From the NCBI GenBank assembly GCA_031280955.1, contig JAITGA010000015.1:9334-73333 (forward strand): a stretch of 64,000 bases of DNA, given 5' to 3'. A model generated the notes under the pieces. That model was not told the DNA's origin. It searched no databases and saw only the letters and a list, made by a program, of their open reading frames with translations. Positions 6,386 through 35,193 of the stretch are shown here, one piece after another (position 1 is the stretch's first letter; each line of letters begins with the position of its first letter). Source of the DNA: Lachnospiraceae bacterium. GTDB taxonomy: Bacteria > Bacillota > Clostridia > Lachnospirales > Lachnospiraceae. Made by a program: the position numbers and the translations under genes.

Positions 6386-7166
6386 ACATGCGGCATGGGA
6401 TGCCGAGAGCGGGAATGAAAGGGATACAATAAGAAACTTTTTCCGGCAACGAAAGAGTCTGTTTGTGATTGCTCTTTCAATTATGATGTTTGGGTTCATC
6501 GCCTGGTCGGGATACCGTTATCTAATCGATAACTTTACCGTTACCAAAATCCATGTCCACGGCAATGTCCAATACGGCAACGATGAAATCATCGAAATGG
6601 TGATGCGGGGTCGATACGGCAACAACTCCCTTTTCCTTTCTTGGTGGTACAAGGATCGGAGCATAGATGACGTTCCTTTTATTGAAAAAATGGATGTCAC
6701 TATCTTGGAACGTGACACAATCAGAATCAATGTTTACGAAAAAGCGGTCGCCGGTTATGTGGAGTTCCTCGGTCACTACCTTTATTTTGACAAAGATGGG
6801 ATAATCGTGGAGACGGCTACTGAGCGGCGGGCGGAGATTCCCGAGGTGATTGGGCTGAGGTTTGATTATGCGGTCAAACACGCCCGGCTTCCGATAAGGG
6901 ACAACTCGATTTTTCAAACCATCCTTACGATAAGGCATTTGTCCGAGCAGTTCAACATTCCTGCCGACAGAATCTTCTTTGGTGACAGCAATGAAGTGAC
7001 CTTGCTGTTCGATGATATTCGTGTTGCCTTGGGTAATGAGGGGCGGATTGATGACAAAATCATGGCTTTGGAAAACATTCTCCCCAGTCTTATTGGCAGG
7101 AGGGGAATTTTGCGAATGGAGCATTATGATGAGTTTGCCTCGGAGGTAATTTTTGAATCTAGCTGA
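6375..7166 (+). CDS. ftsQ: Cell division protein FtsQ/DivIB (POTRA domain)
   Basis: Single TM helix followed by a POTRA-like segment (FTVTKIHVHGNVQYGNDEI). Lies between ftsW and ftsZ. Confidence 0.65.
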   Translation: MRSEHAAWDAESGNERDTIRNFFRQRKSLFVIALSIMMFGFIAWSGYRYLIDNFTVTKIHVHGNVQYGNDEIIEMVMRGRYGNNSLFLSWWYKDRSIDDVPFIEKMDVTILERDTIRINVYEKAVAGYVEFLGHYLYFDKDGIIVETATERRAEIPEVIGLRFDYAVKHARLPIRDNSIFQTILTIRHLSEQFNIPADRIFFGDSNEVTLLFDDIRVALGNEGRIDDKIMALENILPSLIGRRGILRMEHYDEFASEVIFESS

Positions 7167-7466
7167 ATAAAGTGAAAATTTTACTTTTTTCGTTAATTTT
7201 ATCAATTTAGATATTGCTATCTTTGCAAAATAATTATATGATGTATTAGTATTGCATGAACAGATAGAAAAGAGCAATATAAAGGTATCGAAAATACCTG
7301 ACAAACGATACTGTGACGGATAACGTTGCAGATGTTTGGATTAAGTAATTTTTGCAAAAAAAGTGGGTAAAATGTGATGAAATCCCCATTTAACCGACTG
7401 ATATGCAGAGAATAATAGAACAGGGTATTGCTGCAAAAAGATATCCATGACAGGGAGGGAAGTCTT

Positions 7467-26685: not shown

Positions 26686-27549
26686 TTATTCGTCCAGCAT
26701 CAGGGGCTTTTTCTTCGCTTTTCGTTTCAAAGCTGCGATTTGTTCACGCTCCACCTGTGATATACCCTTTTCCGGTACAGGTAAATTTTCTGGCATAGTC
26801 CCACCCAAATCCTTGATGGTCTGGCGGACCCTTTTGCCGACAGTATAGTGCGTAGTGACTGCTGCTTGCGCTCCTTGTATGTTTTCGCGTTTTAGTTTGC
26901 TCTCGGTTTGTGTAATTCGGAATAAATTTGCCGCAAGCTCTTCGCTTCCCATAAAATCAAGAATTTTCTCTTTTGGCTTCAACCCTTTTTTCGTATGTAT
27001 GTCATCAACATCAAGACCACCGTATAATCCTTTGTATCCGGCGTTTTGAAAAATTGCATATTCTGCATTCGTTATCAGTCCGGCATTGCGGGCAGCTTCG
27101 GCAAGCATCTGATTCCATTGCTTGATATTGCCGCGCACAACGAGCCGTTTGTTATCTTCATCAAGTTGATTAAAGTAATCTGCGACTTCTTGGCGTCGCG
27201 TTTGTATAGCAAAATAAGTTTGACCGAATGCGATGACTTCTTTACGCGGATCACCGTTTTGAACAACAAGGTAACAAGCATAACGGGAAAGTTCATAATC
27301 TATGACGCACCTGTTAGTTCCGCTTCCTATCTCGACCATTTTGTTGACCTCAACAAAATGGTCTTCCATGTCGAAACCACTGTTTTTACAGGAAAGCCTC
27401 GCCTTATCAAGAACCTTTGAAAAATTACGCCATTCGGTATAATCTAATTCAACGGATAGTTCACGAGCCAGCCAGTATTCACCGCCGTCATCGCGAATGT
27501 GCTTAATGTCTTCGAATCGCTTGTATTCTTTAGCTCTTAGTTCACTCAT
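26686..27549 (-). CDS. dinD: DNA damage-inducible protein D (DinD)-like
   Basis: FEDIKHIRDDGGEYWLARELSVELDYTEWRNF..VLDKARLSCKNSG ... DYELSRYACYLVVQNGDPRKEVIAFGQTYFAIQTRRQE matches the DinD family pattern as I recall it. Confidence 0.75.
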   Translation of the reverse strand: MSELRAKEYKRFEDIKHIRDDGGEYWLARELSVELDYTEWRNFSKVLDKARLSCKNSGFDMEDHFVEVNKMVEIGSGTNRCVIDYELSRYACYLVVQNGDPRKEVIAFGQTYFAIQTRRQEVADYFNQLDEDNKRLVVRGNIKQWNQMLAEAARNAGLITNAEYAIFQNAGYKGLYGGLDVDDIHTKKGLKPKEKILDFMGSEELAANLFRITQTESKLKRENIQGAQAAVTTHYTVGKRVRQTIKDLGGTMPENLPVPEKGISQVEREQIAALKRKAKKKPLMLDE

Positions 27550-27910: not shown

Positions 27911-28546
27911 TTATTTTTCTTGTAAACCTCTCTTTTCAAAATAATCTTTATGGTTTTCAAAATGATAAATATATCGTGAAATAAATGCTTTATCAGTTGA
28001 AAGAATCGGCATCCTATTAGTTCCTTGCTTGTTATATGCCACACTATTTTCCAATAGAAAATCCGTCAATAAAGCTCTATCATCGCAAATAATGTACCAA
28101 AAATCAGAAATTCTATCATATTCTACAATCGTTAGTTTTTTTATGTTCGGTGATTTTGACCATTCTTTTTTTAACGTTTCTCTTTCTGTATCAAAAAAAT
28201 CATCATGTAACTCATGATTTTTTGGTAATTTTCTCAGCATAATTATACACTCATCAATAGACAAATTCATATTATTGATAAAGTGTTGTGCCTTAGTGCT
28301 TGAGTTGGTAGCATAAATCCTTAACAAATTAATATGTCTCTTCCCATTAATAGATTCAATTTTCTCAAATAGGTTTGAATAGGCATCATTTACTTCATTA
28401 ATGATTTCAACTGCAGTTGTTATGCTTGATTTGTTTTTGTGTGTATTCATAATTTTGTTGATAATCCAATGAACAAATTGGATTGCTAGAAATAATCCCA
28501 CTCCGCTAAAAAGCCATTCTTTGTTATCTGATAACCATGTAACCAT
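27911..28546 (-). CDS. Hypothetical N-terminally membrane-anchored protein
   Basis: 211 aa. One TM helix (WLFSGVGLFLAIQFVHWII). The remainder has no motif I can name. AT-rich, and co-oriented downstream of the kinase gene. Confidence 0.45.
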   Translation of the reverse strand: MVTWLSDNKEWLFSGVGLFLAIQFVHWIINKIMNTHKNKSSITTAVEIINEVNDAYSNLFEKIESINGKRHINLLRIYATNSSTKAQHFINNMNLSIDECIIMLRKLPKNHELHDDFFDTERETLKKEWSKSPNIKKLTIVEYDRISDFWYIICDDRALLTDFLLENSVAYNKQGTNRMPILSTDKAFISRYIYHFENHKDYFEKRGLQEK

Positions 28547-28792: not shown

Positions 28793-31393
28793 TTAAAGCT
28801 GCTCAATAGTAATATTGAAGTTCCTAATAAAAAATCCATCAGATTCAATACCGCTATAAAAGACAACAGCAGATTGATTAGCGCTTAGTTCTTGCGACAC
28901 CATATACACATTATTGATATACACATCTGCAATTTTATCTTTTACATATATTTTTACAGTTGTGAAATCTTCCAGTTCTGTATTAAATATTGAAATCGGA
29001 GCTTTTGAAATAGTCGTTCCATTTCTATATAACTCAAATTGTAAATCTCTTGAACCAAAGGCTTTGGCATATTTAATATGCGGGTCGAAACGAAGGCCCA
29101 AATGGTCTGTACTGGCAATTCCAAAAGCATCTCCAAATTCATTGTCCGCATTGGTACCTAAGCATATTGTTACTAACTTCGAACGATAATTTCCTCTTTG
29201 TTTTACTTCAAACTCGACTATAAAATCGGAATAACCCTTCGGCATTATATTGAGAGCTAAATATCCTTTTTCAACTAACAAACCGTTACTACCATCAAAT
29301 TCTAGTTTACCCGACGATGACCAATTTCTTAATGGCGTCCCGCTCGTAAAACTCTCATTTAATCCTAAATATGCACTCACATCACAAACAGCCATTTCTG
29401 TTCCATCCTCAAGAGATAGAATGATCGTAGTTTTACCAGCAACTTTTGCTTCTACTTTCCCATTATTATCTACTGTAGCTATTGATGTATTATTTGACCT
29501 CCATACCAAGCTAACATTCTTAACTCCTTCAATGTTTGTGTTATATTTCAATTGCTCTGACTCCCCAATTGCAAGGTTTAGAGAATTTACATCAAGAGTA
29601 ACTTCAAATATGCTTAACAGCACACTCATAAACTTTGCAATTTCAAGATTGATTTCTTGTTCAAAAACAGGATAACCTTTTAACAAGTCTTTTAGCTCAG
29701 TTATTCCATTATCATAATCGTTTGATTCTTCTGTGTTTGTATTAATTTCAGAAATACGTGTCATTACATATTCTTTGTCCTTTGTATACATTATCTCGGT
29801 ATATTGTGTAAGAAGCGAAAGAAATTCATTGTCTACTGGTATTAGACTAAGAGCTAAGTTTAATCGGTTGATTATTTCCCCATATGCCTCTTTTGCTTCC
29901 AGTTCAGAAATAGAAGTGAGTATGTCATTTCTGTATAGCTCAATTGACTCATCTAGCTTCGACTGGGCGTTTAGATAATCATCATCCCTGTTAATAACTT
30001 TTCTTAGTTCATCTATCGCTAACATATAGTTCCTATTTGCCATAGCCTGTAAACCATTTTGATATGCCTTGTTAGAGCTTTCTAAATCGACATCTACAGA
30101 AGGTGTAGTAATTGCATCAGATAATATGTTTGCAATTGGATCATTATGATTTCCACCCGGCATAATCGATCTTAGAGCAAAAAACCCAGCCACTATAACT
30201 ATTATCGCAATAGCTACAGCTATTATAGGTTTATTTGATCTATTAGTTGATTTTAGTAGCAAAGCAGATTTTTGATTACTTACTGGAGTCATCACACTCG
30301 GCCTTGGGGTAGAACCTGGTGGCTTGATAGTCGTTTGTGTCAAAGAGGATTTTGGCCTAAATAATTGCGAAAACCTGTTATCCACTTCACACCACGGACA
30401 AGCCGATAACATCTTATAGTATTGGTGGTAAGAAACATTTTTACAGTTCTTTAGTTCATTACGTAAATTTCTTAATGCGTGATGCCAATCTACTGGAGTG
30501 GGGCGACTACTTGGGCTGAAATGACCGTCAATAAATGCCTGCTCAAATAAGTCCTGTATCTCTTTTGGCAAGATTGAAATCTCCGGTGCGTATGCCGGTA
30601 TTTTTATGTTCGGAAAACTCTGCATGAACGGAAATTCGCCTTTAATAATGTTGTCAGACGGCTGCGGAGCTACTACAGATGATTGGCTTGGAATTATTGC
30701 ACAAGCAAATGGATGGACACCATTTATAAGTAGTTGAAAAATATGAATTGATAAAGCAAAACCATCCGTATCTTGCGAAAAGGTTGGCAGCTTTGCTGTA
30801 GCTAAAGTACTGCCTCCACGCATTTTCACTTGGATTTCTCCCGGTAGATATTCAGGGATACCAACATCGCAGCGATAAGTATCATTGCCATCTTTGATAT
30901 GATAAGAATCGGTATCTAAAAAGCAAATATGCCCGGTATTTGGATTTACACTTATGTTTTTCGGATTAAAGTCACCGCATATATGTCCTGCATTATGAAC
31001 AGAATCTAACACTGCACAAAGATTTTCTGCGATAATAATGCGATTTTCCCATGTCATGTGAGGATATTTTGCAGACGAGCCATATTCATAAATGACATTC
31101 AAATCCTCACTAATATCCATCTTAGGCATAATAAAGCCAACAAACTGCCCGCTTTCATAAAGGACATCTTGTGGCCAAGCAATCTGTGACAAAACACTTT
31201 TGTCTGGTGGAAAATCAACCATCCTCACAAGTTTTTTTTCTTTCTCGAGGCTTGTCTTTCCGGGCAGATAAATTTTTGCTATCAACTTCGATTGCCCAAT
31301 AACATCAAAAATTTCGCCTTCACCACCTGTTGCAATTGGTTTTGTTGCTAGTTCGTATAATAATCCACCTTTACCTTTACACTTCATTGTCAT
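28793..31393 (-). CDS. Membrane Ser/Thr protein kinase (YegI/TerY-P-type) with Zn-ribbon-like element, TM helix, extracytoplasmic helical repeats, Big_2 and lectin/DUF1080-like jelly-roll
   Basis: Numbering follows the 866-aa ORF. Gly-loop ATGGEGEIF, Lys in LIAKIY (K40), catalytic loop HICGDFNPKN (D141/N146), LDTDS in the DFG position, and IPEYLPGE. CKNVSYHQYYKMLSACPWCE, then TM helix at aa 388-407. Big_2-like region at aa ~598-672 (LAIGESEQLKY...WRSNNTSIATVDNNGKVEAKVAGKTTII). C-terminal beta-rich region at aa ~680-866. M3 (31387) has better RBS spacing. Confidence 0.85.
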   Translation of the reverse strand: MTMKCKGKGGLLYELATKPIATGGEGEIFDVIGQSKLIAKIYLPGKTSLEKEKKLVRMVDFPPDKSVLSQIAWPQDVLYESGQFVGFIMPKMDISEDLNVIYEYGSSAKYPHMTWENRIIIAENLCAVLDSVHNAGHICGDFNPKNISVNPNTGHICFLDTDSYHIKDGNDTYRCDVGIPEYLPGEIQVKMRGGSTLATAKLPTFSQDTDGFALSIHIFQLLINGVHPFACAIIPSQSSVVAPQPSDNIIKGEFPFMQSFPNIKIPAYAPEISILPKEIQDLFEQAFIDGHFSPSSRPTPVDWHHALRNLRNELKNCKNVSYHQYYKMLSACPWCEVDNRFSQLFRPKSSLTQTTIKPPGSTPRPSVMTPVSNQKSALLLKSTNRSNKPIIAVAIAIIVIVAGFFALRSIMPGGNHNDPIANILSDAITTPSVDVDLESSNKAYQNGLQAMANRNYMLAIDELRKVINRDDDYLNAQSKLDESIELYRNDILTSISELEAKEAYGEIINRLNLALSLIPVDNEFLSLLTQYTEIMYTKDKEYVMTRISEINTNTEESNDYDNGITELKDLLKGYPVFEQEINLEIAKFMSVLLSIFEVTLDVNSLNLAIGESEQLKYNTNIEGVKNVSLVWRSNNTSIATVDNNGKVEAKVAGKTTIILSLEDGTEMAVCDVSAYLGLNESFTSGTPLRNWSSSGKLEFDGSNGLLVEKGYLALNIMPKGYSDFIVEFEVKQRGNYRSKLVTICLGTNADNEFGDAFGIASTDHLGLRFDPHIKYAKAFGSRDLQFELYRNGTTISKAPISIFNTELEDFTTVKIYVKDKIADVYINNVYMVSQELSANQSAVVFYSGIESDGFFIRNFNITIEQL

Positions 31394-31487: not shown

Positions 31488-32510
31488 TCATATAAAGTTT
31501 ATCTCAAAAACCAATTGGCTTTGATTGCAACTTATATCAAATACTGGATTACATCTATATAAAAACCAGTATTGTTCTTTCGCAATAGTGGCTACCTTAT
31601 CTATTATCCCTTCCAAATCATTTACATTTTTCACTTTTGCAATGATATTTTTCTTTCCATGCATTAAGCAGTTTTCTATTATTTTGCCGAGCTGTGTTGA
31701 GTTGTATGCCACCAATGAATTAATTGACATGAAATCATTGCCGACAGTCGTACAAACAGGGATATCATTAATAATCAAATGATCTTTTTTAATATCTTCG
31801 TCTGTAAGGTTAAAATAATCATACCGATTTGTCTTGTTCGTTAAAGTCATGTCAAAAGTAACATCCAAATGATACGCATTTCCATCAACAAAAACAATAT
31901 TCCATGCGTGTCTGTCGTTCTCTGTATTACCAAGCGGATCGGTTGCTTTTCCAAATACAACGATGCTCTTCATCCCAAGATAGTCAAGCGATAGTTTTAC
32001 AAATTTCGCAATGCCCTCACAAACGGCAGTTTTATTAAGAACCAATCCGAGTACGGAGCTTGAATAATTTCCAAACGAATAATCATATTTAAAGTTGTTC
32101 AAGCAATAATCGTGTACATATATCTCCTTATCTATATCGCTTCTTGATTTAATACCATCAAATGCAGTCAAATACTTAAGTATTTCAACTTCTATTTGCT
32201 TAACATCTTTCCGTTTATACTTGTATTCAGGCTGTATTATGATTTTGCTTTTGTATAGGTCATTTACATAGCTGAAAGATGACACATAAAATAGCAAGGG
32301 GCTATCAAGCAAAACACTTTCAAAGACCATGAAAATCTCATTCACCGGCCGCATGGGTAATTCAATTTCAATATTAAAGCTTTTAATACCCGATGCTAAT
32401 CTTTTATATACTGTTTTTTGAATATCATCTAAACAGTCATAATAGTACTGGCCTGTGTATAGGGGAGTTCTTAGTAAATTATGTAATCCTTGTTTTAATA
32501 ACATCATCAA
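31488..32510 (-). CDS. Transglutaminase-like (papain-fold Cys-His-Asp) protein, cytoplasmic
   Basis: Putative triad in the canonical order and context: TAVCEGIAKF (C164), DRHAWNIVFV (H201), YHLDVTFD (D216). No signal peptide is evident. Confidence 0.78.
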   Translation of the reverse strand: MMMLLKQGLHNLLRTPLYTGQYYYDCLDDIQKTVYKRLASGIKSFNIEIELPMRPVNEIFMVFESVLLDSPLLFYVSSFSYVNDLYKSKIIIQPEYKYKRKDVKQIEVEILKYLTAFDGIKSRSDIDKEIYVHDYCLNNFKYDYSFGNYSSSVLGLVLNKTAVCEGIAKFVKLSLDYLGMKSIVVFGKATDPLGNTENDRHAWNIVFVDGNAYHLDVTFDMTLTNKTNRYDYFNLTDEDIKKDHLIINDIPVCTTVGNDFMSINSLVAYNSTQLGKIIENCLMHGKKNIIAKVKNVNDLEGIIDKVATIAKEQYWFLYRCNPVFDISCNQSQLVFEINFI

Positions 32511-32527: not shown

Positions 32528-33442
32528 CTAAGGTTTGGTATCATGTGAGAGTTCCGAATCTGCATCAGCCGTAGTGAAATTTCCTTCATCTTTATACAAG
32601 TGGGGATATGCCTTTTTGTTCCATTCCATTTGCAAGGTATCCCAATCTGGTTCTATGTAGTAGCTATCTTCTTTTAACTCAGGTAAAACTTTATCATTAA
32701 TTAGAACGATTATAGATTTATCATCGGTTATCGAAGCACATCCTTCACCATTAAGGAACTTTTCTCTTTCTTTACCTACTAACTCAATTGTTTCGGGTGA
32801 TGCACCCATGACATTATTATCCATAAAATACCTTATCAATGGAACGTATATTTCAACTGGTTGCCCTTTCAAAAGATATGGAAAAAATACATCATAAACT
32901 CCGTCAGTAGCAAGTAAAACGCTGGTAAAGTTACCTTCTGCCTTATTAATTATCCAGGTATCTTTTCCAGCCCTCAAAGGGATAACATATACATTTTCTT
33001 TTTTTTGTGGTTCCGTGATTTTCATGTAATCACCATCACTAGAAAGACCAACAATCCCACCATCACCGCTATGCCCGTAAGCAACATTTTTGCCATCATA
33101 AATTACAAGCGATAATGTGGTGTCATATTCAATTATTAAGTTACCGTCTGAAAGGGAACGTTTGTCAATTTCTTGCTCCGCATAACTAAAAGCTTTTTGA
33201 ATTATATGTAACAAGTCAGGAGCATCACTTACGGACATTATTTCTTCGCTGCAAACGCGGACAGAAGTTTCGACAGCAATGGACGAAGCAATATCAGAAT
33301 ACTTACAGCTTCCTACACCATCAGCCACAGCAGCTATTACAGTTCCATTTTCTAACCGCTCTGTTTTAATTGAATCTTGATTGCCAACTACTTTTTCCAT
33401 ATGCGAAGAGCCAATTGATGTATAATCATAAAAAAGAACCAT
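32528..33442 (-). CDS. PP2C-family Ser/Thr phosphatase
   Basis: GNQDS, AAVADGVGS, GHSGDGGI, LLATDGVYDVF and TDDKSIIVL motifs. The start is taken at MVLFYDY (RBS GGGAAGGGAGG); the track ORF extends to 33472. Confidence 0.85.
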   Translation of the reverse strand: MVLFYDYTSIGSSHMEKVVGNQDSIKTERLENGTVIAAVADGVGSCKYSDIASSIAVETSVRVCSEEIMSVSDAPDLLHIIQKAFSYAEQEIDKRSLSDGNLIIEYDTTLSLVIYDGKNVAYGHSGDGGIVGLSSDGDYMKITEPQKKENVYVIPLRAGKDTWIINKAEGNFTSVLLATDGVYDVFFPYLLKGQPVEIYVPLIRYFMDNNVMGASPETIELVGKEREKFLNGEGCASITDDKSIIVLINDKVLPELKEDSYYIEPDWDTLQMEWNKKAYPHLYKDEGNFTTADADSELSHDTKP

Positions 33443-33478
33443 GTAACCTGACCTCCCTTCCCAAACATACATAGATTC

Positions 33479-34198
33479 CTACCAATCACTTGTATCCTGC
33501 GGGTCAATTTTCTTAACTTCTTCCGGCAAGCGTGGCAATGCAGGCTTCTCGCCGACACGGCTTACAGAAATAACCTTCATACTTTCAGCAATCCACCGAA
33601 GAACTGGCGCAAAGTCAAAATCGCCAAGCTCCATGATGCGCGGATTTTCGCCTTGATGCATTGTAAGCTTTACTAATGTATTTTTATCGTAGCCAGGAAC
33701 TCCTAATGCCAAAAATCTTAGTTTACCTTGTGATCCTTTGGATTCTTCTAACTCAATCCGCTCTCTGGCACTCTCTATATCATCATTTCCATCAGGCAAG
33801 CCATCGGTAATCATGAATAACCAAGGTATGTAAACAGGCGTTCCCAATTCATTATAGAATCTGTTACGTTCTTTAAGCTGGTCAATAGCTAAGTGGATGC
33901 CTTTACTCATGGCGGTTGTGCCATCAACAGTAAGCGTTATTGGTTCCATTTGCGATATTGGTGTAAACGGAACAACTACTTTTGCCTCGCTGTTAAATGA
34001 AACAATGCAAATATCAAGACATTTTTGCACCATTTCATCGGAAGCAAGATGCTTGCGAAAATCCTTGATAGCTTGATTAAGGTTGTCAATCGCTTCGCCT
34101 TCCATTGAATATGATGTGTCTACTAAAAGAACGCAAGCCATGTGTGCACCTCCAGGATTTGCAATTTTTGGTGTACCAAAAGTTTCTTGTGATATCAT
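33479..34198 (-). CDS. von Willebrand factor A (TerY-like) domain protein
   Basis: Intact MIDAS: DTSYS (D27-x-S-x-S), GTTAMSKG and MITDGLPDG. Strong RBS GGGAGG. No signal peptide. Confidence 0.85.
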   Translation of the reverse strand: MISQETFGTPKIANPGGAHMACVLLVDTSYSMEGEAIDNLNQAIKDFRKHLASDEMVQKCLDICIVSFNSEAKVVVPFTPISQMEPITLTVDGTTAMSKGIHLAIDQLKERNRFYNELGTPVYIPWLFMITDGLPDGNDDIESARERIELEESKGSQGKLRFLALGVPGYDKNTLVKLTMHQGENPRIMELGDFDFAPVLRWIAESMKVISVSRVGEKPALPRLPEEVKKIDPQDTSDW

Positions 34199-34263: not shown

Positions 34264-34434
34264 TTAGCGTTCAATATTGTAGTCGCCGCGTTCATATGCT
34301 TCATAATTACCGCAATTCTTATAGTTATAATGATCTTTGCAGTAGTAATCCCTATCTCTACCATCTTTATATGTGTTATGATGCTCTGGTGTTACCCTGC
34401 AATATGAGTTAGTATAATCATAAACTGGACACAT
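34264..34434 (-). CDS. Cys/Tyr-rich micro-protein (56 aa; below the track cutoff)
   Basis: My translation is MCPVYDYTNSYCRVTPEHHNTYKDGRDRDYYCKDHYNYKNCGNYEAYERGDYNIER. AAGGAGG lies 9 nt upstream of the ATG. It is the first ORF of the co-oriented string. Confidence 0.45.
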   Translation of the reverse strand: MCPVYDYTNSYCRVTPEHHNTYKDGRDRDYYCKDHYNYKNCGNYEAYERGDYNIER

Positions 34435-34480: not shown

Positions 34481-34504
34481 TATCAAAAGGTATACCTTTT
34501 GATA
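34481..34504. promoter_or_regulatory. Perfect 24-bp palindrome TATCAAAAGGTATACCTTTTGATA (hix/res-like site 1)
   Basis: Read directly from the sequence. The half-site TATCAAAAGG resembles the TTATCAAAAACC half-site of Hin/Gin-family sites (from memory). Confidence 0.7.
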
Positions 34505-34584
34505 ATAATTCTCTGGGATGTTAAAATTTCGATTTAAGGTTGCTTTCACTCCCAAAATAGTTTAAAATAGGAAATAGTTTGAGG

Positions 34585-34610
34585 CTATCAAAAGGTATAC
34601 CTTTTGGTAG
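34585..34610. promoter_or_regulatory. 26-bp palindrome CTATCAAAAGGTATACCTTTTGGTAG (site 2, one mismatched pair)
   Basis: It has the same 20-bp core as site 1, about 105 bp away, and abuts the recombinase stop codon (34612-34614). Confidence 0.7.
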
Positions 34611-34611
34611 C

Positions 34612-35193
34612 CTACTTTTTGCCTTTCAATAGCCGCCATTCTCGTAAACGCCTGTAAAACGTGGCTTCTTTCAATCCTGTTTGCGTTAAAATATCCGAAA
34701 TTGATATATTTCCATGCTCCCATTGATTAACCAAAGAATCAAAATTTTCGGGGAGCTTTTTGGTGGGGCGGCCAAGATGCACACCCCGTGCTCGTGCCGC
34801 CGCAATACCTTCTCGCTGACGTTGTAAGAGATATTCTCTTTCCAATTCTGATACCGCTCCAAATACCGTCAACATAAACTTGCCAGTAGGTGTAGACGTG
34901 TTGATATTCTCTTTTTGACTTATAAATTTCACATTTTTTGCAGTTAGTTTATCTATCAAAACCAATAAATCCCGCGTGTTTCTGGCAAAACGACTTACCG
35001 ATTCAACTATAATAGTATCGCCGCTTTTTGCAGTAGTCATGAGTTTTTGAAGTTCTGGACGTGCCATATTTTTTCCGCTTAACTTGTCGGTAAAAATATT
35101 TTCCAACGGGATTTTCAGCTCGGCCATTGCTATGATTTGTCTATCTGTGCATTGTTCGGTACAGCTAACGCGAATATACGCAAATATTGCCAT
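34612..35193 (-). CDS. Small serine recombinase (resolvase/invertase family)
   Basis: 193 aa. Catalytic YIRVSCTEQ (Ser10), VESVSRFARN, E-helix, GRPTK hinge and a C-terminal HTH (ISISDILTQTGLKEATFYRRL). Confidence 0.9.
   Translation of the reverse strand: MAIFAYIRVSCTEQCTDRQIIAMAELKIPLENIFTDKLSGKNMARPELQKLMTTAKSGDTIIVESVSRFARNTRDLLVLIDKLTAKNVKFISQKENINTSTPTGKFMLTVFGAVSELEREYLLQRQREGIAAARARGVHLGRPTKKLPENFDSLVNQWEHGNISISDILTQTGLKEATFYRRLREWRLLKGKK

What the first reader, a model, noticed from the sequence alone, without database searches (positions are those of the whole stretch)
31488..32510. Cytoplasmic transglutaminase-like Cys-His-Asp enzyme embedded between phosphatase and kinase
The triad context (AVCEGIA ... 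DRHAWNIV ... YHLDVTFD) is the classical transglutaminase-core/papain-like arrangement. The N-terminal ~150 aa are an uncharacterised helical region. No secretion signal is visible, so its substrates should be intracellular. The co-encoded vWA protein or the kinase juxtamembrane linker are obvious candidates. Pairing of vWA with a transglutaminase recalls eukaryotic cross-linking systems, but I know of no described bacterial TerY-P variant containing one.
Basis: partly seen in the sequence, partly recalled or inferred. Interest (0 to 1): 0.6.

Follow-up and report, generated by a model that had tools for sequence, protein, structure and literature searches.

The report
Transglutaminase-fold enzyme inside kinase-phosphatase-vWA cassette
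A real and very probably active cytoplasmic cysteine enzyme of the transglutaminase fold sits inside a mobile, phase-variable vWA/phosphatase/kinase operon; its subfamily travels with such operons across several bacterial phyla, which makes it an apparently undescribed fourth part of a poorly understood signalling or defence switch.

Summary
Window 31488-32510 (-) encodes a 340-aa protein that passes Pfam's Transglut_core cut-off. It has no signal peptide, and its Cys164-His201-Asp216 triad is invariant in all relatives examined. The AlphaFold model (pLDDT 89) matches Streptococcus pyogenes TglA (PDB 9CRN) over its whole length. The TglA relative I could read is a lipoprotein; this protein is cytoplasmic.

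The gene lies in a tight operon: micro-protein, vWA, PP2C, TGase, membrane kinase. The operon sits on an AT-rich island behind a serine invertase and a small invertible segment. The three flanking proteins are homologues of E. coli YegL, PphC and YegI, a triad of the TerY-P type.

The link to the triad is not chance:
- In the TGase clade that holds the window protein, 20 of 23 well-flanked loci carry the triad, in seven gene orders and several phyla. In the sister clade, 0 of 57 do.
- Natural fusions exist: TGase-vWA, and TGase-Mrr nuclease within a triad operon.
- The TGase is nevertheless looser than the triad genes. It has been swapped between triad lineages and also pairs with TrwB-like ATPases.

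Best reading: a thiol peptidase or transamidase that works with the vWA protein as the processing or output arm of a phospho-gated conflict module. I rate it a new variant of a known kind, of moderate interest. The chemistry and the substrate remain inferred.

The parts
31488..32510 (-). TGase-like (TglA-like) cytoplasmic Cys-His-Asp enzyme, 340 aa: the finding itself
   Evidence: ORF. Pfam PF01841 E 1.7e-6, above cut-off. AF2 pLDDT 89.3, pTM 0.87. Foldseek 9crn TglA E 1.2e-18, TMq 0.84. Triad invariant. No signal peptide.
32528..33472 (-). PP2C-type Ser/Thr phosphatase, 314 aa; its stop lies 17-23 nt before the TGase start
   Evidence: Pfam PP2C_2 E 2.5e-25. BLASTP to E. coli PphC 23% identity, E 6e-7. 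Spacing.
33479..34198 (-). Cytoplasmic vWA protein with an intact MIDAS motif (DTSYS), YegL/TerY-like, 239 aa
   Evidence: Pfam VWA_2/VWA E ~5e-7. BLASTP to E. coli YegL 35% identity, E 6e-32. phrog_28389 E 2e-29.
28793..31393 (-). Membrane Ser/Thr kinase of the YegI type, 866 aa: cytoplasmic kinase domain (~1-340, ending in CPWC), TM helix ~389-407, outside part with a Big_2 domain
   Evidence: BLASTP to E. coli YegI 30% identity over 346 aa, E 6e-47. Big_2 E 3.8e-12. TM hydropathy 2.95. GGAGG RBS before the ATG at 31393.
34264..34434 (-). 56-aa four-Cys, Tyr-rich micro-protein that heads the operon (CPx8CRVT...CGNYxxY); an occasional companion of this TGase clade
   Evidence: ORF with an AGGAGG RBS. 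Homologues exist only next to clade-A TGase genes: L255 (same genome, 9 nt upstream of the second TGase copy), L083 and L007; HMM E 1e-18 to 2e-32.
34481..34609 (.). Two 24-nt palindromic sites (TATCAAAAGGTATACCTTTTGATA) flanking an 81-bp segment with promoter-like sites: a probable invertible promoter for the operon
   Evidence: Inverted repeats 96% complementary. The best promoter-like site, 34499-34527 on the + strand, faces away from the operon in this assembly. Related cassettes L083 and L003 have comparable inverted repeats beside a tyrosine recombinase.
34612..35193 (-). Small serine recombinase (invertase/resolvase type), 193 aa
   Evidence: Pfam Resolvase E 3.2e-39. NCBIfam Mpi-family invertase model at E 8e-19, below its cut-off.

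Best explanation
The gene encodes a catalytically competent, cytoplasmic thiol enzyme of the transglutaminase/papain-like fold, with the three-domain architecture of TglA. It is a dedicated but modular fourth component of a YegL/PphC/YegI-type (TerY-P-like) vWA-phosphatase-kinase switch. That switch is carried on a horizontally acquired island and is probably turned on and off by an invertible promoter.

Proposed mechanism (inferred, not shown):
- The membrane kinase senses a signal at the cell envelope.
- The kinase and the PP2C set the phosphorylation state of the complex.
- The vWA protein binds or assembles with the TGase.
- The TGase then cuts a protein amide bond (peptidase or isopeptidase), or less probably forms one.
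- This processes or activates the output of a conflict or defence response.

Shown here: the gene and its fold, the conserved triad, the cytoplasmic location, operon packing, the clade-specific association with the triad in many gene orders, and natural TGase-vWA and TGase-nuclease fusions.

Inferred: the chemistry, the substrate, the direction of signal flow and the biological role.
For: Fold and active site.
Cytoplasmic location.
Operon packing: gaps of 17-94 nt, own RBSs and no internal terminator on the minus strand.
Association with the triad:
- 20/23 clade-A loci against 0/57 clade-B loci carry at least 2 triad genes; Fisher p 5e-16; seven gene orders.
- The nearest cassette, L083, shares all parts: vWA 86%, kinase 73%, PP2C 63%, TGase 56% identity, plus the micro-protein.
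- In many loci the PP2C stop overlaps the TGase start.
Fusions:
- TGase-vWA, with triad and MIDAS both intact, followed by a PP2C gene (L257).
- TGase-Mrr_cat nuclease as the last gene of a kinase-vWA-PP2C operon (L258).
Conflict or mobile context:
- AT-rich island.
- Absent from 200 sister genera.
- Neighbours elsewhere include GHH nuclease/SUKH pairs, integrases, SMODS+SLATT and TrwB-like ATPases.
Precedent: Kaur et al. 2020 (PMC7159879) list a TGase-like thiol peptidase among the peptidase domains fused to vWA in vWA-MoxR conflict systems.
Against: There is no experimental datum for any member of this subfamily.
The TGase is less tightly bound to the triad than the triad genes are to each other:
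- Mantel r is 0.43-0.50 for the TGase against the triad genes, versus 0.94 among the triad genes.
- 3 of 23 well-flanked clade-A loci lack the triad.
- The closest single homologues (L009, L001, L081/82) sit beside TrwB/TraG-like ATPase genes instead.
So the enzyme can work without the triad.
PADLOC has no model matching the TGase, vWA or PP2C, so a defence role is not established.
Peptidase and transamidase chemistry cannot be told apart from sequence; the HxW and Cys motifs are common to both.
The Fisher test ignores shared ancestry among loci.
Confidence: 0.6

Rival explanations
1. It is a true transglutaminase (transamidase). Once the kinase is triggered it covalently cross-links proteins through Gln-Lys isopeptide bonds. 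Targets could be the vWA protein, the Ser/Thr/Pro/Gln/Lys-rich juxtamembrane linker of the kinase, or invader proteins, which would freeze a signalling complex or immobilise a target.
For: The fold and the Cys-His-Asp triad with the conserved HxW motif are those of transglutaminases. Pairing of vWA and TGase recurs, and fusions exist. In the Esr pathway of Actinomycetes a transglutaminase (EsrD) is proposed to attach a sensor protein covalently (PMC13622651). The kinase linker (residues ~340-388) is rich in Gln, Lys, Ser and Thr.
Against: From general knowledge rather than anything tested here, most bacterial PF01841 proteins studied so far act as, or are predicted to be, peptidases, isopeptidases or deamidases. 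The structural neighbours after TglA include a 'putative cysteine protease' as well as a TGase. EsrD is proposed to link a cell-surface protein, whereas this protein is cytoplasmic. No feature specific to cross-linking could be tested here.
Confidence: 0.2
2. The enzyme's real partner is the small four-Cys micro-protein, or another small Zn-ribbon protein. It matures, cleaves or modifies that protein, and the triad is only a frequent neighbour.
For: Homologues of the 56-aa micro-protein were found only beside clade-A TGase genes. In the second copy in the same genome the micro-protein gene ends 9 nt before the TGase gene, with no triad in between. Other cassettes carry small Zn-ribbon ORFs in the same position.
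Against: The micro-protein was detectable in only 4 of about 60 clade-A loci, so it cannot be the general substrate. It looks like a metal-binding mini-domain, comparable to the Zn ribbon fused to classical TerY-P kinases (PMC10542128), rather than a precursor peptide.
Confidence: 0.07
3. The TGase gene is independent mobile-element cargo that lands next to triads only because both live on the same islands. It would have no functional tie to the kinase, phosphatase or vWA proteins.
For: Weaker co-evolution with the triad. It occurs beside TraG/TrwB-like ATPase genes without a triad. It lies on an AT-rich island alongside other accessory genes.
Against: It is inserted inside the operon, between PP2C and kinase, with gaps of 17-94 nt. 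The association is kept through seven gene orders. Start and stop codons overlap with PP2C in many loci. The TGase-vWA fusion sits next to a PP2C gene, and the TGase-Mrr fusion ends a triad operon.
Confidence: 0.07
4. It is a non-catalytic scaffold with a transglutaminase fold, like yeast Cyk3 or menin, that only bridges the vWA protein and other partners.
For: Menin chains appear among weak structural matches. JGI annotations name relatives 'cytokinesis protein 3'.
Against: Cys164, His201 and Asp216 are 100% conserved across two deep clades, which is not expected of a scaffold. The menin matches have TM ~0.3 and rmsd 17-20 A.
Confidence: 0.05

Closest known systems
Streptococcus pyogenes TglA (PDB 9CRN, 'transglutaminase-like domain-containing protein')
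   Same: It is the only solved structure that matches over the whole length: Foldseek E 1.2e-18, TMq 0.84, 360 aligned columns. It is also the only PDB hit by sequence (E 3e-4). The Cys, His and Asp motifs align: vCeG/vCnG, HAWN/HAWN, lDVT/vDVT. It shares the N-terminal alpha/beta domain, the TGase core and the C-terminal alpha/beta domain.
   Different: Only 14% identity. The TglA homologue I could fetch (S. didelphis, 62% identical to TglA over the stretch used as query) has a lipoprotein signal (LIALTAC) and sits between pgi and a regulator gene, with no triad. It is therefore extracellular, whereas the window protein is cytoplasmic. I found no publication on TglA's function.
E. coli YegL - PphC (YegK) - YegI triad, the archetype of the TerY-P phosphorylation triad (Anantharaman, Iyer and Aravind 2012, cited from memory and via PMC10542128)
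   Same: The window's vWA, PP2C and kinase are homologues, at E 6e-32, 6e-7 and 6e-47, including the CPWC motif that ends the kinase domain. The gene order vWA-PP2C-X-kinase is the same.
   Different: In E. coli the slot between the phosphatase and kinase genes holds yegJ (DUF2314, opposite strand), not a TGase gene. The window kinase has its own Big_2-containing outside part after the TM helix. The window operon sits on a mobile island behind an invertase.
TerY-P anti-phage system (Gao et al. 2020, as summarised in PMC10542128)
   Same: A three-part vWA, PP2C, Ser/Thr kinase module that acts as a stand-alone defence system.
   Different: No PADLOC-DB v2 model matched the window's vWA, PP2C or TGase proteins, and the kinase gave only weak hits to MkoA and PD-T4-6. 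The described kinases carry an OB fold or a Zn ribbon, not a TM helix plus ectodomain. No TGase is described.
VMAP proteins of vWA-MoxR ternary conflict systems (Kaur, Burroughs, Iyer, Aravind 2020, PMC7159879)
   Same: A peptidase domain, rarely of the TGase-like thiol peptidase superfamily, is joined to a vWA domain in predicted conflict systems. The natural TGase-vWA fusion P0139 has this architecture, and the window encodes the same two domains as neighbouring genes.
   Different: There is no MoxR AAA+ ATPase here. The regulator is a kinase/PP2C pair instead.
Esr epibiont-sensing pathway of Actinomycetes (bioRxiv 2026, PMC13622651)
   Same: It combines a vWA protein, Ser/Thr kinases, a phosphatase and a transglutaminase (EsrD) in one threat-sensing gene cluster.
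   Different: Esr also needs MoxR, FHA proteins and a giant surface protein, EsrA. EsrD is proposed to anchor EsrA at the cell surface. None of these parts is present in the window, and the window TGase is cytoplasmic.

Membership tests
Transglutaminase-core superfamily (Pfam PF01841, papain-like thiol enzymes) | Profile match above the curated cut-off | tested here: met
   28.7 bits against a cut-off of 23, E 1.7e-6, residues 122-212.
Transglutaminase-core superfamily (Pfam PF01841, papain-like thiol enzymes) | Cys-His-Asp catalytic triad in the canonical order, conserved in orthologues | tested here: met
   C164, H201 and D216 align with the triad motifs of 9crn. They are invariant in 32 and in 61+98 sequences.
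Transglutaminase-core superfamily (Pfam PF01841, papain-like thiol enzymes) | Enzymatic activity (peptidase, transamidase or deamidase) | not testable with these tools
   Needs a biochemical assay.
TglA-like three-domain TGase proteins (PDB 9CRN) | Same fold over the full length | tested here: met
   Foldseek TMq 0.84, TMt 0.79, E 1.2e-18, on a model with pLDDT 89.
TglA-like three-domain TGase proteins (PDB 9CRN) | Exported lipoprotein (signal peptide with lipobox) | tested here: not met
   The TglA homologue in S. didelphis has MKKSYIYFFTVCFSLIALTAC. The window protein has N-terminal hydropathy 0.33 and no lipobox. The NCBIfam lipoprotein model MAG6410_fam_LP scores 69 bits against a cut-off of 450.
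TerY-P / YegL-PphC-YegI phosphorylation triad (the operon that holds the gene) | Adjacent genes for a stand-alone vWA protein, a PP2C phosphatase and a Ser/Thr kinase | tested here: met
   Pfam VWA and PP2C_2. Kinase, vWA and PP2C are homologous to E. coli YegI, YegL and PphC.
TerY-P / YegL-PphC-YegI phosphorylation triad (the operon that holds the gene) | Kinase fused at its C-terminus to a Zn ribbon or an OB fold (as described in PMC10542128) | tested here: not met
   The kinase continues into a TM helix and a Big_2-containing outside part. A separate four-Cys micro-protein gene heads the operon instead.
TerY-P anti-phage system of Gao et al. 2020 | Match to defence-system profile models | tested here: not met
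   PADLOC-DB v2 gave no hit for the vWA, PP2C or TGase proteins, and only weak kinase hits to MkoA and PD-T4-6. I did not verify that this library holds TerY-P models, so the result is weak.
TerY-P anti-phage system of Gao et al. 2020 | Protection against phage | not testable with these tools
   Needs plaque assays.
vWA-MoxR (VMAP) ternary conflict systems | MoxR AAA+ ATPase gene next to the vWA protein gene | tested here: not met
   None of the seven island proteins scanned has a MoxR/AAA domain.
Esr pathway | MoxR, FHA protein and giant surface sensor EsrA in the cluster | tested here: not met
   None found among the ORFs of the island.

The most novel reading that the evidence does not exclude
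The TGase and the vWA protein form a split 'peptidase-vWA' death or defence switch. It would be the same logic as the caspase- or trypsin-bearing VMAP proteins, but gated by reversible Ser/Thr phosphorylation instead of a MoxR ATPase. The switch would be wired to an outside-facing receptor kinase and to phase variation. When the receptor detects an attack at the envelope, the TGase would proteolytically (or by cross-linking) activate interchangeable effectors, such as an Mrr-type nuclease or TrwB-like ATPase machines. This would be a bacterial receptor-kinase-to-protease immune pathway not described so far.
Probability: 0.2. Interest if true: 0.8.

Novelty: new variant of a known kind. Interest (0 to 1): 0.55.

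Why it matters
The vWA/PP2C/kinase triad (E. coli YegL-PphC-YegI, TerY-P) is widespread and has been reported as anti-phage. As far as I could find, its output is not established: no substrate and no effector chemistry.

A subfamily of cassettes with a built-in, clearly catalytic enzyme offers a direct experimental handle:
- one point mutation (C164A);
- candidate partners supported by natural fusions (vWA, Mrr nuclease);
- a natural ON/OFF switch.

It also extends the pairing of a peptidase-like domain with a vWA domain, so far predicted only for MoxR-type conflict systems, to phosphorylation-gated ones. Finally, it shows that TglA-fold enzymes exist in a cytoplasmic form.

Tried and rejected
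- PADLOC scan: nothing for the TGase, vWA or PP2C proteins.
- PHROGs: only a weak TGase hit.
- Phage and plasmid record collections: only distant hits, at most 36% identity, mostly secreted or S-layer TGase proteins or unannotated gut phage contigs.
- IMG/VR: 2 loci, both at 31-33% identity, the level of the sister clade; their clade was not checked.
- BFVD fold library: no full-length viral match. The family is therefore not typically phage- or plasmid-borne.
- Is the 421-aa protein that often follows the TGase a diverged kinase? No. HHalign probability is 0.1%, and its model has the TrwB/VirD4 coupling-protein fold.
- Is the micro-protein a universal partner? No. It was found in only 4 loci.
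- Domain fusions inside the fetched loci: none. They appeared only in the exhaustive library search.
- Literature on S. pyogenes TglA/9CRN: nothing found.
- The founding TerY-P paper (PMC4104200): not held.
- Housekeeping role: rejected, because the gene is absent from 200 sister genera.

Full report
**What is there.**
- Window 31488-32510 (minus strand) is a 340-aa ORF. A GGAGG ribosome-binding site lies 10-16 nt upstream of a TTG-ATG-ATG start cluster.
- It is one gene in a tightly packed minus-strand row:
  - serine recombinase, 34612-35193;
  - a 56-aa four-Cys micro-protein, 34264-34434;
  - vWA protein, 33479-34198;
  - PP2C phosphatase, 32528-33472;
  - the TGase-like gene;
  - an 866-aa membrane kinase, 28793-31393.
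- From the vWA gene to the kinase gene the gaps are 6, 17-23 and 94 nt, and 65 nt separate the micro-protein gene from the vWA gene. No terminator-like site lies on the minus strand inside the row.
- The row sits in an AT-rich stretch (GC 0.33-0.38 against 0.45-0.50 around it). The host is a Lachnospiraceae-like Clostridia genome, judged from the flanking yloV gene, whose best matches are mostly Lachnospiraceae at 65% identity or less.

**The protein.**
- Pfam Transglut_core matches above its curated cut-off (E 1.7e-6).
C164, H201 and D216 are invariant in 32 aligned homologues, and 100% conserved in 61 members of its own clade and in the 98-member sister clade.
- An AlphaFold2 model built on that alignment is confident (pLDDT 89.3, pTM 0.87).
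- The only full-length structural match in the PDB is S. pyogenes TglA, 9CRN (E 1.2e-18, TMq 0.84). Other TGases and 'putative cysteine proteases' match the core only. 9CRN is also the only hit by sequence, with the catalytic motifs aligned.
- The TglA homologue I could fetch (S. didelphis) is a lipoprotein with no triad nearby.
- The window protein and its clade have no hydrophobic N-terminus: hydropathy 0.33, against 2.12 for that lipoprotein signal.
- So this is a cytoplasmic version of a fold whose solved representative is probably exported.
- The family is small: 155 clusters (at 50% identity) at E <= 1e-30 among 1.84 billion representatives.

**Is the link to the phosphatase and kinase real?**
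- I fetched 165 loci from genomes and metagenomes. I searched their ORFs with iterated profiles seeded from the window's vWA, PP2C and kinase proteins.
- A maximum-likelihood tree splits the homologues into two deep clades with 100/100 support.
- The clade that holds the window protein contains every triad-linked locus. Among loci with at least 4 kb on both sides, 20 of 23 carry at least two triad genes within the flanking DNA fetched (up to 8 kb a side). In the sister clade, which is stand-alone in Clostridia with heterogeneous neighbours, the count is 0 of 57 (Fisher p 5e-16).
- The test ignores relatedness. However, the association survives seven gene orders and is seen in records assigned to Fibrobacterota, Spirochaetota, Cloacimonadota, Bacteroidota and Bacillota. 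MAG binning of mobile DNA is not fully reliable.
- In many loci the PP2C stop overlaps the TGase start.
- Within the host's family, none of 200 other genera has a clade-A copy; the best match is 35% identity. The gene is therefore acquired cargo, not housekeeping.

**Fusions.**
- The exhaustive library search turned up two natural fusions, and I confirmed both on their contigs.
- P0139 is a TGase (triad intact) fused to a vWA domain (MIDAS intact), followed by a PP2C gene (L257).
- P0257 is a TGase fused to an Mrr-type restriction-endonuclease domain. It is the last gene of a Pkinase-vWA-PP2C operon (L258).
- The first fusion argues for physical cooperation of the TGase and vWA proteins. The second places the TGase protein at the effector end of a triad operon and points to nucleic-acid conflict.

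**The TGase is modular.**
- Pairwise distances of vWA, PP2C and kinase across 18 complete cassettes correlate at r = 0.94. TGase distances correlate with them at only r = 0.43-0.50, which is still significant. The TGase has been exchanged between triad lineages or evolves differently.
- Its most frequent immediate neighbour is not a triad gene. It is a 421-aa membrane-anchored protein, present in 20 loci directly downstream. That protein has no Pfam match, and its model has the TrwB/VirD4 coupling-protein fold.
- This neighbour is often accompanied by a soluble TraG/TrwB-like ATPase (13 loci).
- Gut Bacillota MAGs and a gut metagenome contig share a long operon: SUKH - GHH nuclease - TraG-like - 421-aa protein - vWA(-vWA) - PP2C - TGase - (VTT membrane protein) - kinase.
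- The closest single homologues (57%, 53%) lie beside the TraG-like gene with no triad in reach.
- The window's own genome has a second clade-A copy (45% identity) on a 5-kb contig: micro-protein - TGase - 421-aa protein - Cys-rich 61-aa ORF - Zn-ribbon protein.

**The surrounding switch.**
- The window's triad is of the E. coli YegL/PphC/YegI type: E 6e-32, 6e-7 and 6e-47, with the same gene order and the shared CPWC motif.
- In E. coli the slot occupied here by the TGase gene holds yegJ on the other strand.
- PADLOC models do not match the vWA, PP2C or TGase proteins.
- Between the recombinase gene and the micro-protein gene, two 24-nt palindromes flank an 81-bp segment carrying promoter-like sites.
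- Related cassettes L083 and L003 have 28-39-nt inverted repeats next to a small tyrosine recombinase in the same place. Phase-variable expression therefore seems to recur with unrelated recombinases. That fits a costly or conflict-related function.

**Mechanism.**
- I commit to the following reading. The protein is an active thiol enzyme that works with the vWA protein as the processing or output arm of the phospho-switch, most probably by cutting a protein amide bond. The receptor-like kinase and the PP2C gate it.
- The nearest conceptual precedent is the peptidase-vWA architecture of VMAP proteins in vWA-MoxR conflict systems, where a TGase-like thiol peptidase is listed as a rare variant (PMC7159879).
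- A second, looser precedent is the Esr pathway, where a transglutaminase accompanies vWA, kinases and a phosphatase but is proposed to anchor a cell-surface protein (PMC13622651).
- True cross-linking chemistry is the main rival (0.2). A role limited to the micro-protein, an unrelated hitchhiker and a silent scaffold are less likely, for the reasons given under the rivals.
- Nothing about substrate, chemistry or phenotype is shown.

**Novelty.**
- I found no paper that joins TerY-P or YegI-type triads with a transglutaminase-like protein. The 2012 founding paper could not be read.
- Notes from this scan record similar 'triad plus TGase-like protein' cassettes with other add-ons in several other genomes. 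They agree with my census but are unchecked AI notes, not independent evidence.
- I class the finding as a new variant of a known kind, with moderate interest (0.55). It is not a new principle, but it is a recurrent, catalytic and easily testable addition to a module whose output I could not find described.

Noticed in passing
G000 contig C17 = L255:1639-4160 (same genome, outside the window): A second clade-A TGase copy (45% identity) is directly preceded by a homologue of the 56-aa four-Cys micro-protein. It is followed by a 423-aa TrwB-fold membrane protein, a Cys-rich 61-aa ORF and a Zn-ribbon protein. No triad lies on this 5-kb contig.
   Followed up: partly
window 34264-34434 (-); L083:4520-4690; L007:~7105-7260; L255:1639-1809: A small protein family with the pattern CPx8C[RK][VL]T...C...C[GA]NY was found only beside clade-A TGase genes, in 4 loci. 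It is probably a metal-binding mini-domain, possibly a free-standing counterpart of the Zn ribbon fused to classical TerY-P kinases.
   Followed up: partly
L080:8009-9286, L080:9973-11286 and 19 other loci: A pair of TrwB/VirD4-like proteins accompanies the TGase in many loci. One is a 421-aa membrane-anchored protein with no Pfam match and a seemingly degenerate P-loop. The other is a ~440-aa soluble TraG-like ATPase. GHH-nuclease and SUKH genes often lie upstream.
   Followed up: partly
L257:1446-3383 and L258:6001-7416: Two natural fusions occur inside triad operons: TGase-vWA, and TGase-Mrr_cat restriction-endonuclease domain.
   Followed up: yes
window 34481-34609; L083:4149-4457; L003:7690-7874: Invertible-promoter-like inverted repeats lie upstream of TGase/triad cassettes. 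In the window they sit beside a serine invertase; in two relatives they sit beside a 191-aa tyrosine recombinase. In the window assembly the best promoter-like site faces away from the operon.
   Followed up: partly
window 26686-27549 (-): A DinD-like (Bro-N) protein matches the PADLOC candidate-defence family PDC-S13 at E 2e-115 and the NCBIfam DinD model above its cut-off. It lies on the same island, downstream of the kinase operon.
   Followed up: no
window 27911-28546 (-): A 211-aa protein with one N-terminal TM helix lies about 250 nt downstream of the kinase gene. No homologue turned up in the first 79 related loci, the only ones searched for it, so it is probably not part of the cassette.
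   Followed up: partly
L081:427-2336: SLATT and SMODS/AGS-C genes (CBASS-like) lie about 5 kb upstream of a TraG-like/TGase pair on a termite-gut contig. A kinase and a vWA gene lie about 5 kb downstream.
   Followed up: no
L256 (E. coli K-12 2147674-2153128): In E. coli the YegL-PphC-YegI triad is flanked by yegD, an Hsp70-family gene. Another note of this scan describes a triad plus TGase-like cassette with a private Hsp70-GrpE pair.
   Followed up: no
clade-B loci, e.g. L136:4986-6797, L128:1244-2962: The sister clade of cytoplasmic TGase-like proteins in Clostridia is stand-alone. In about 13 loci it lies downstream of large proteins that may be prophage structural proteins (my impression only; no profile search was run on them).
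   Followed up: no
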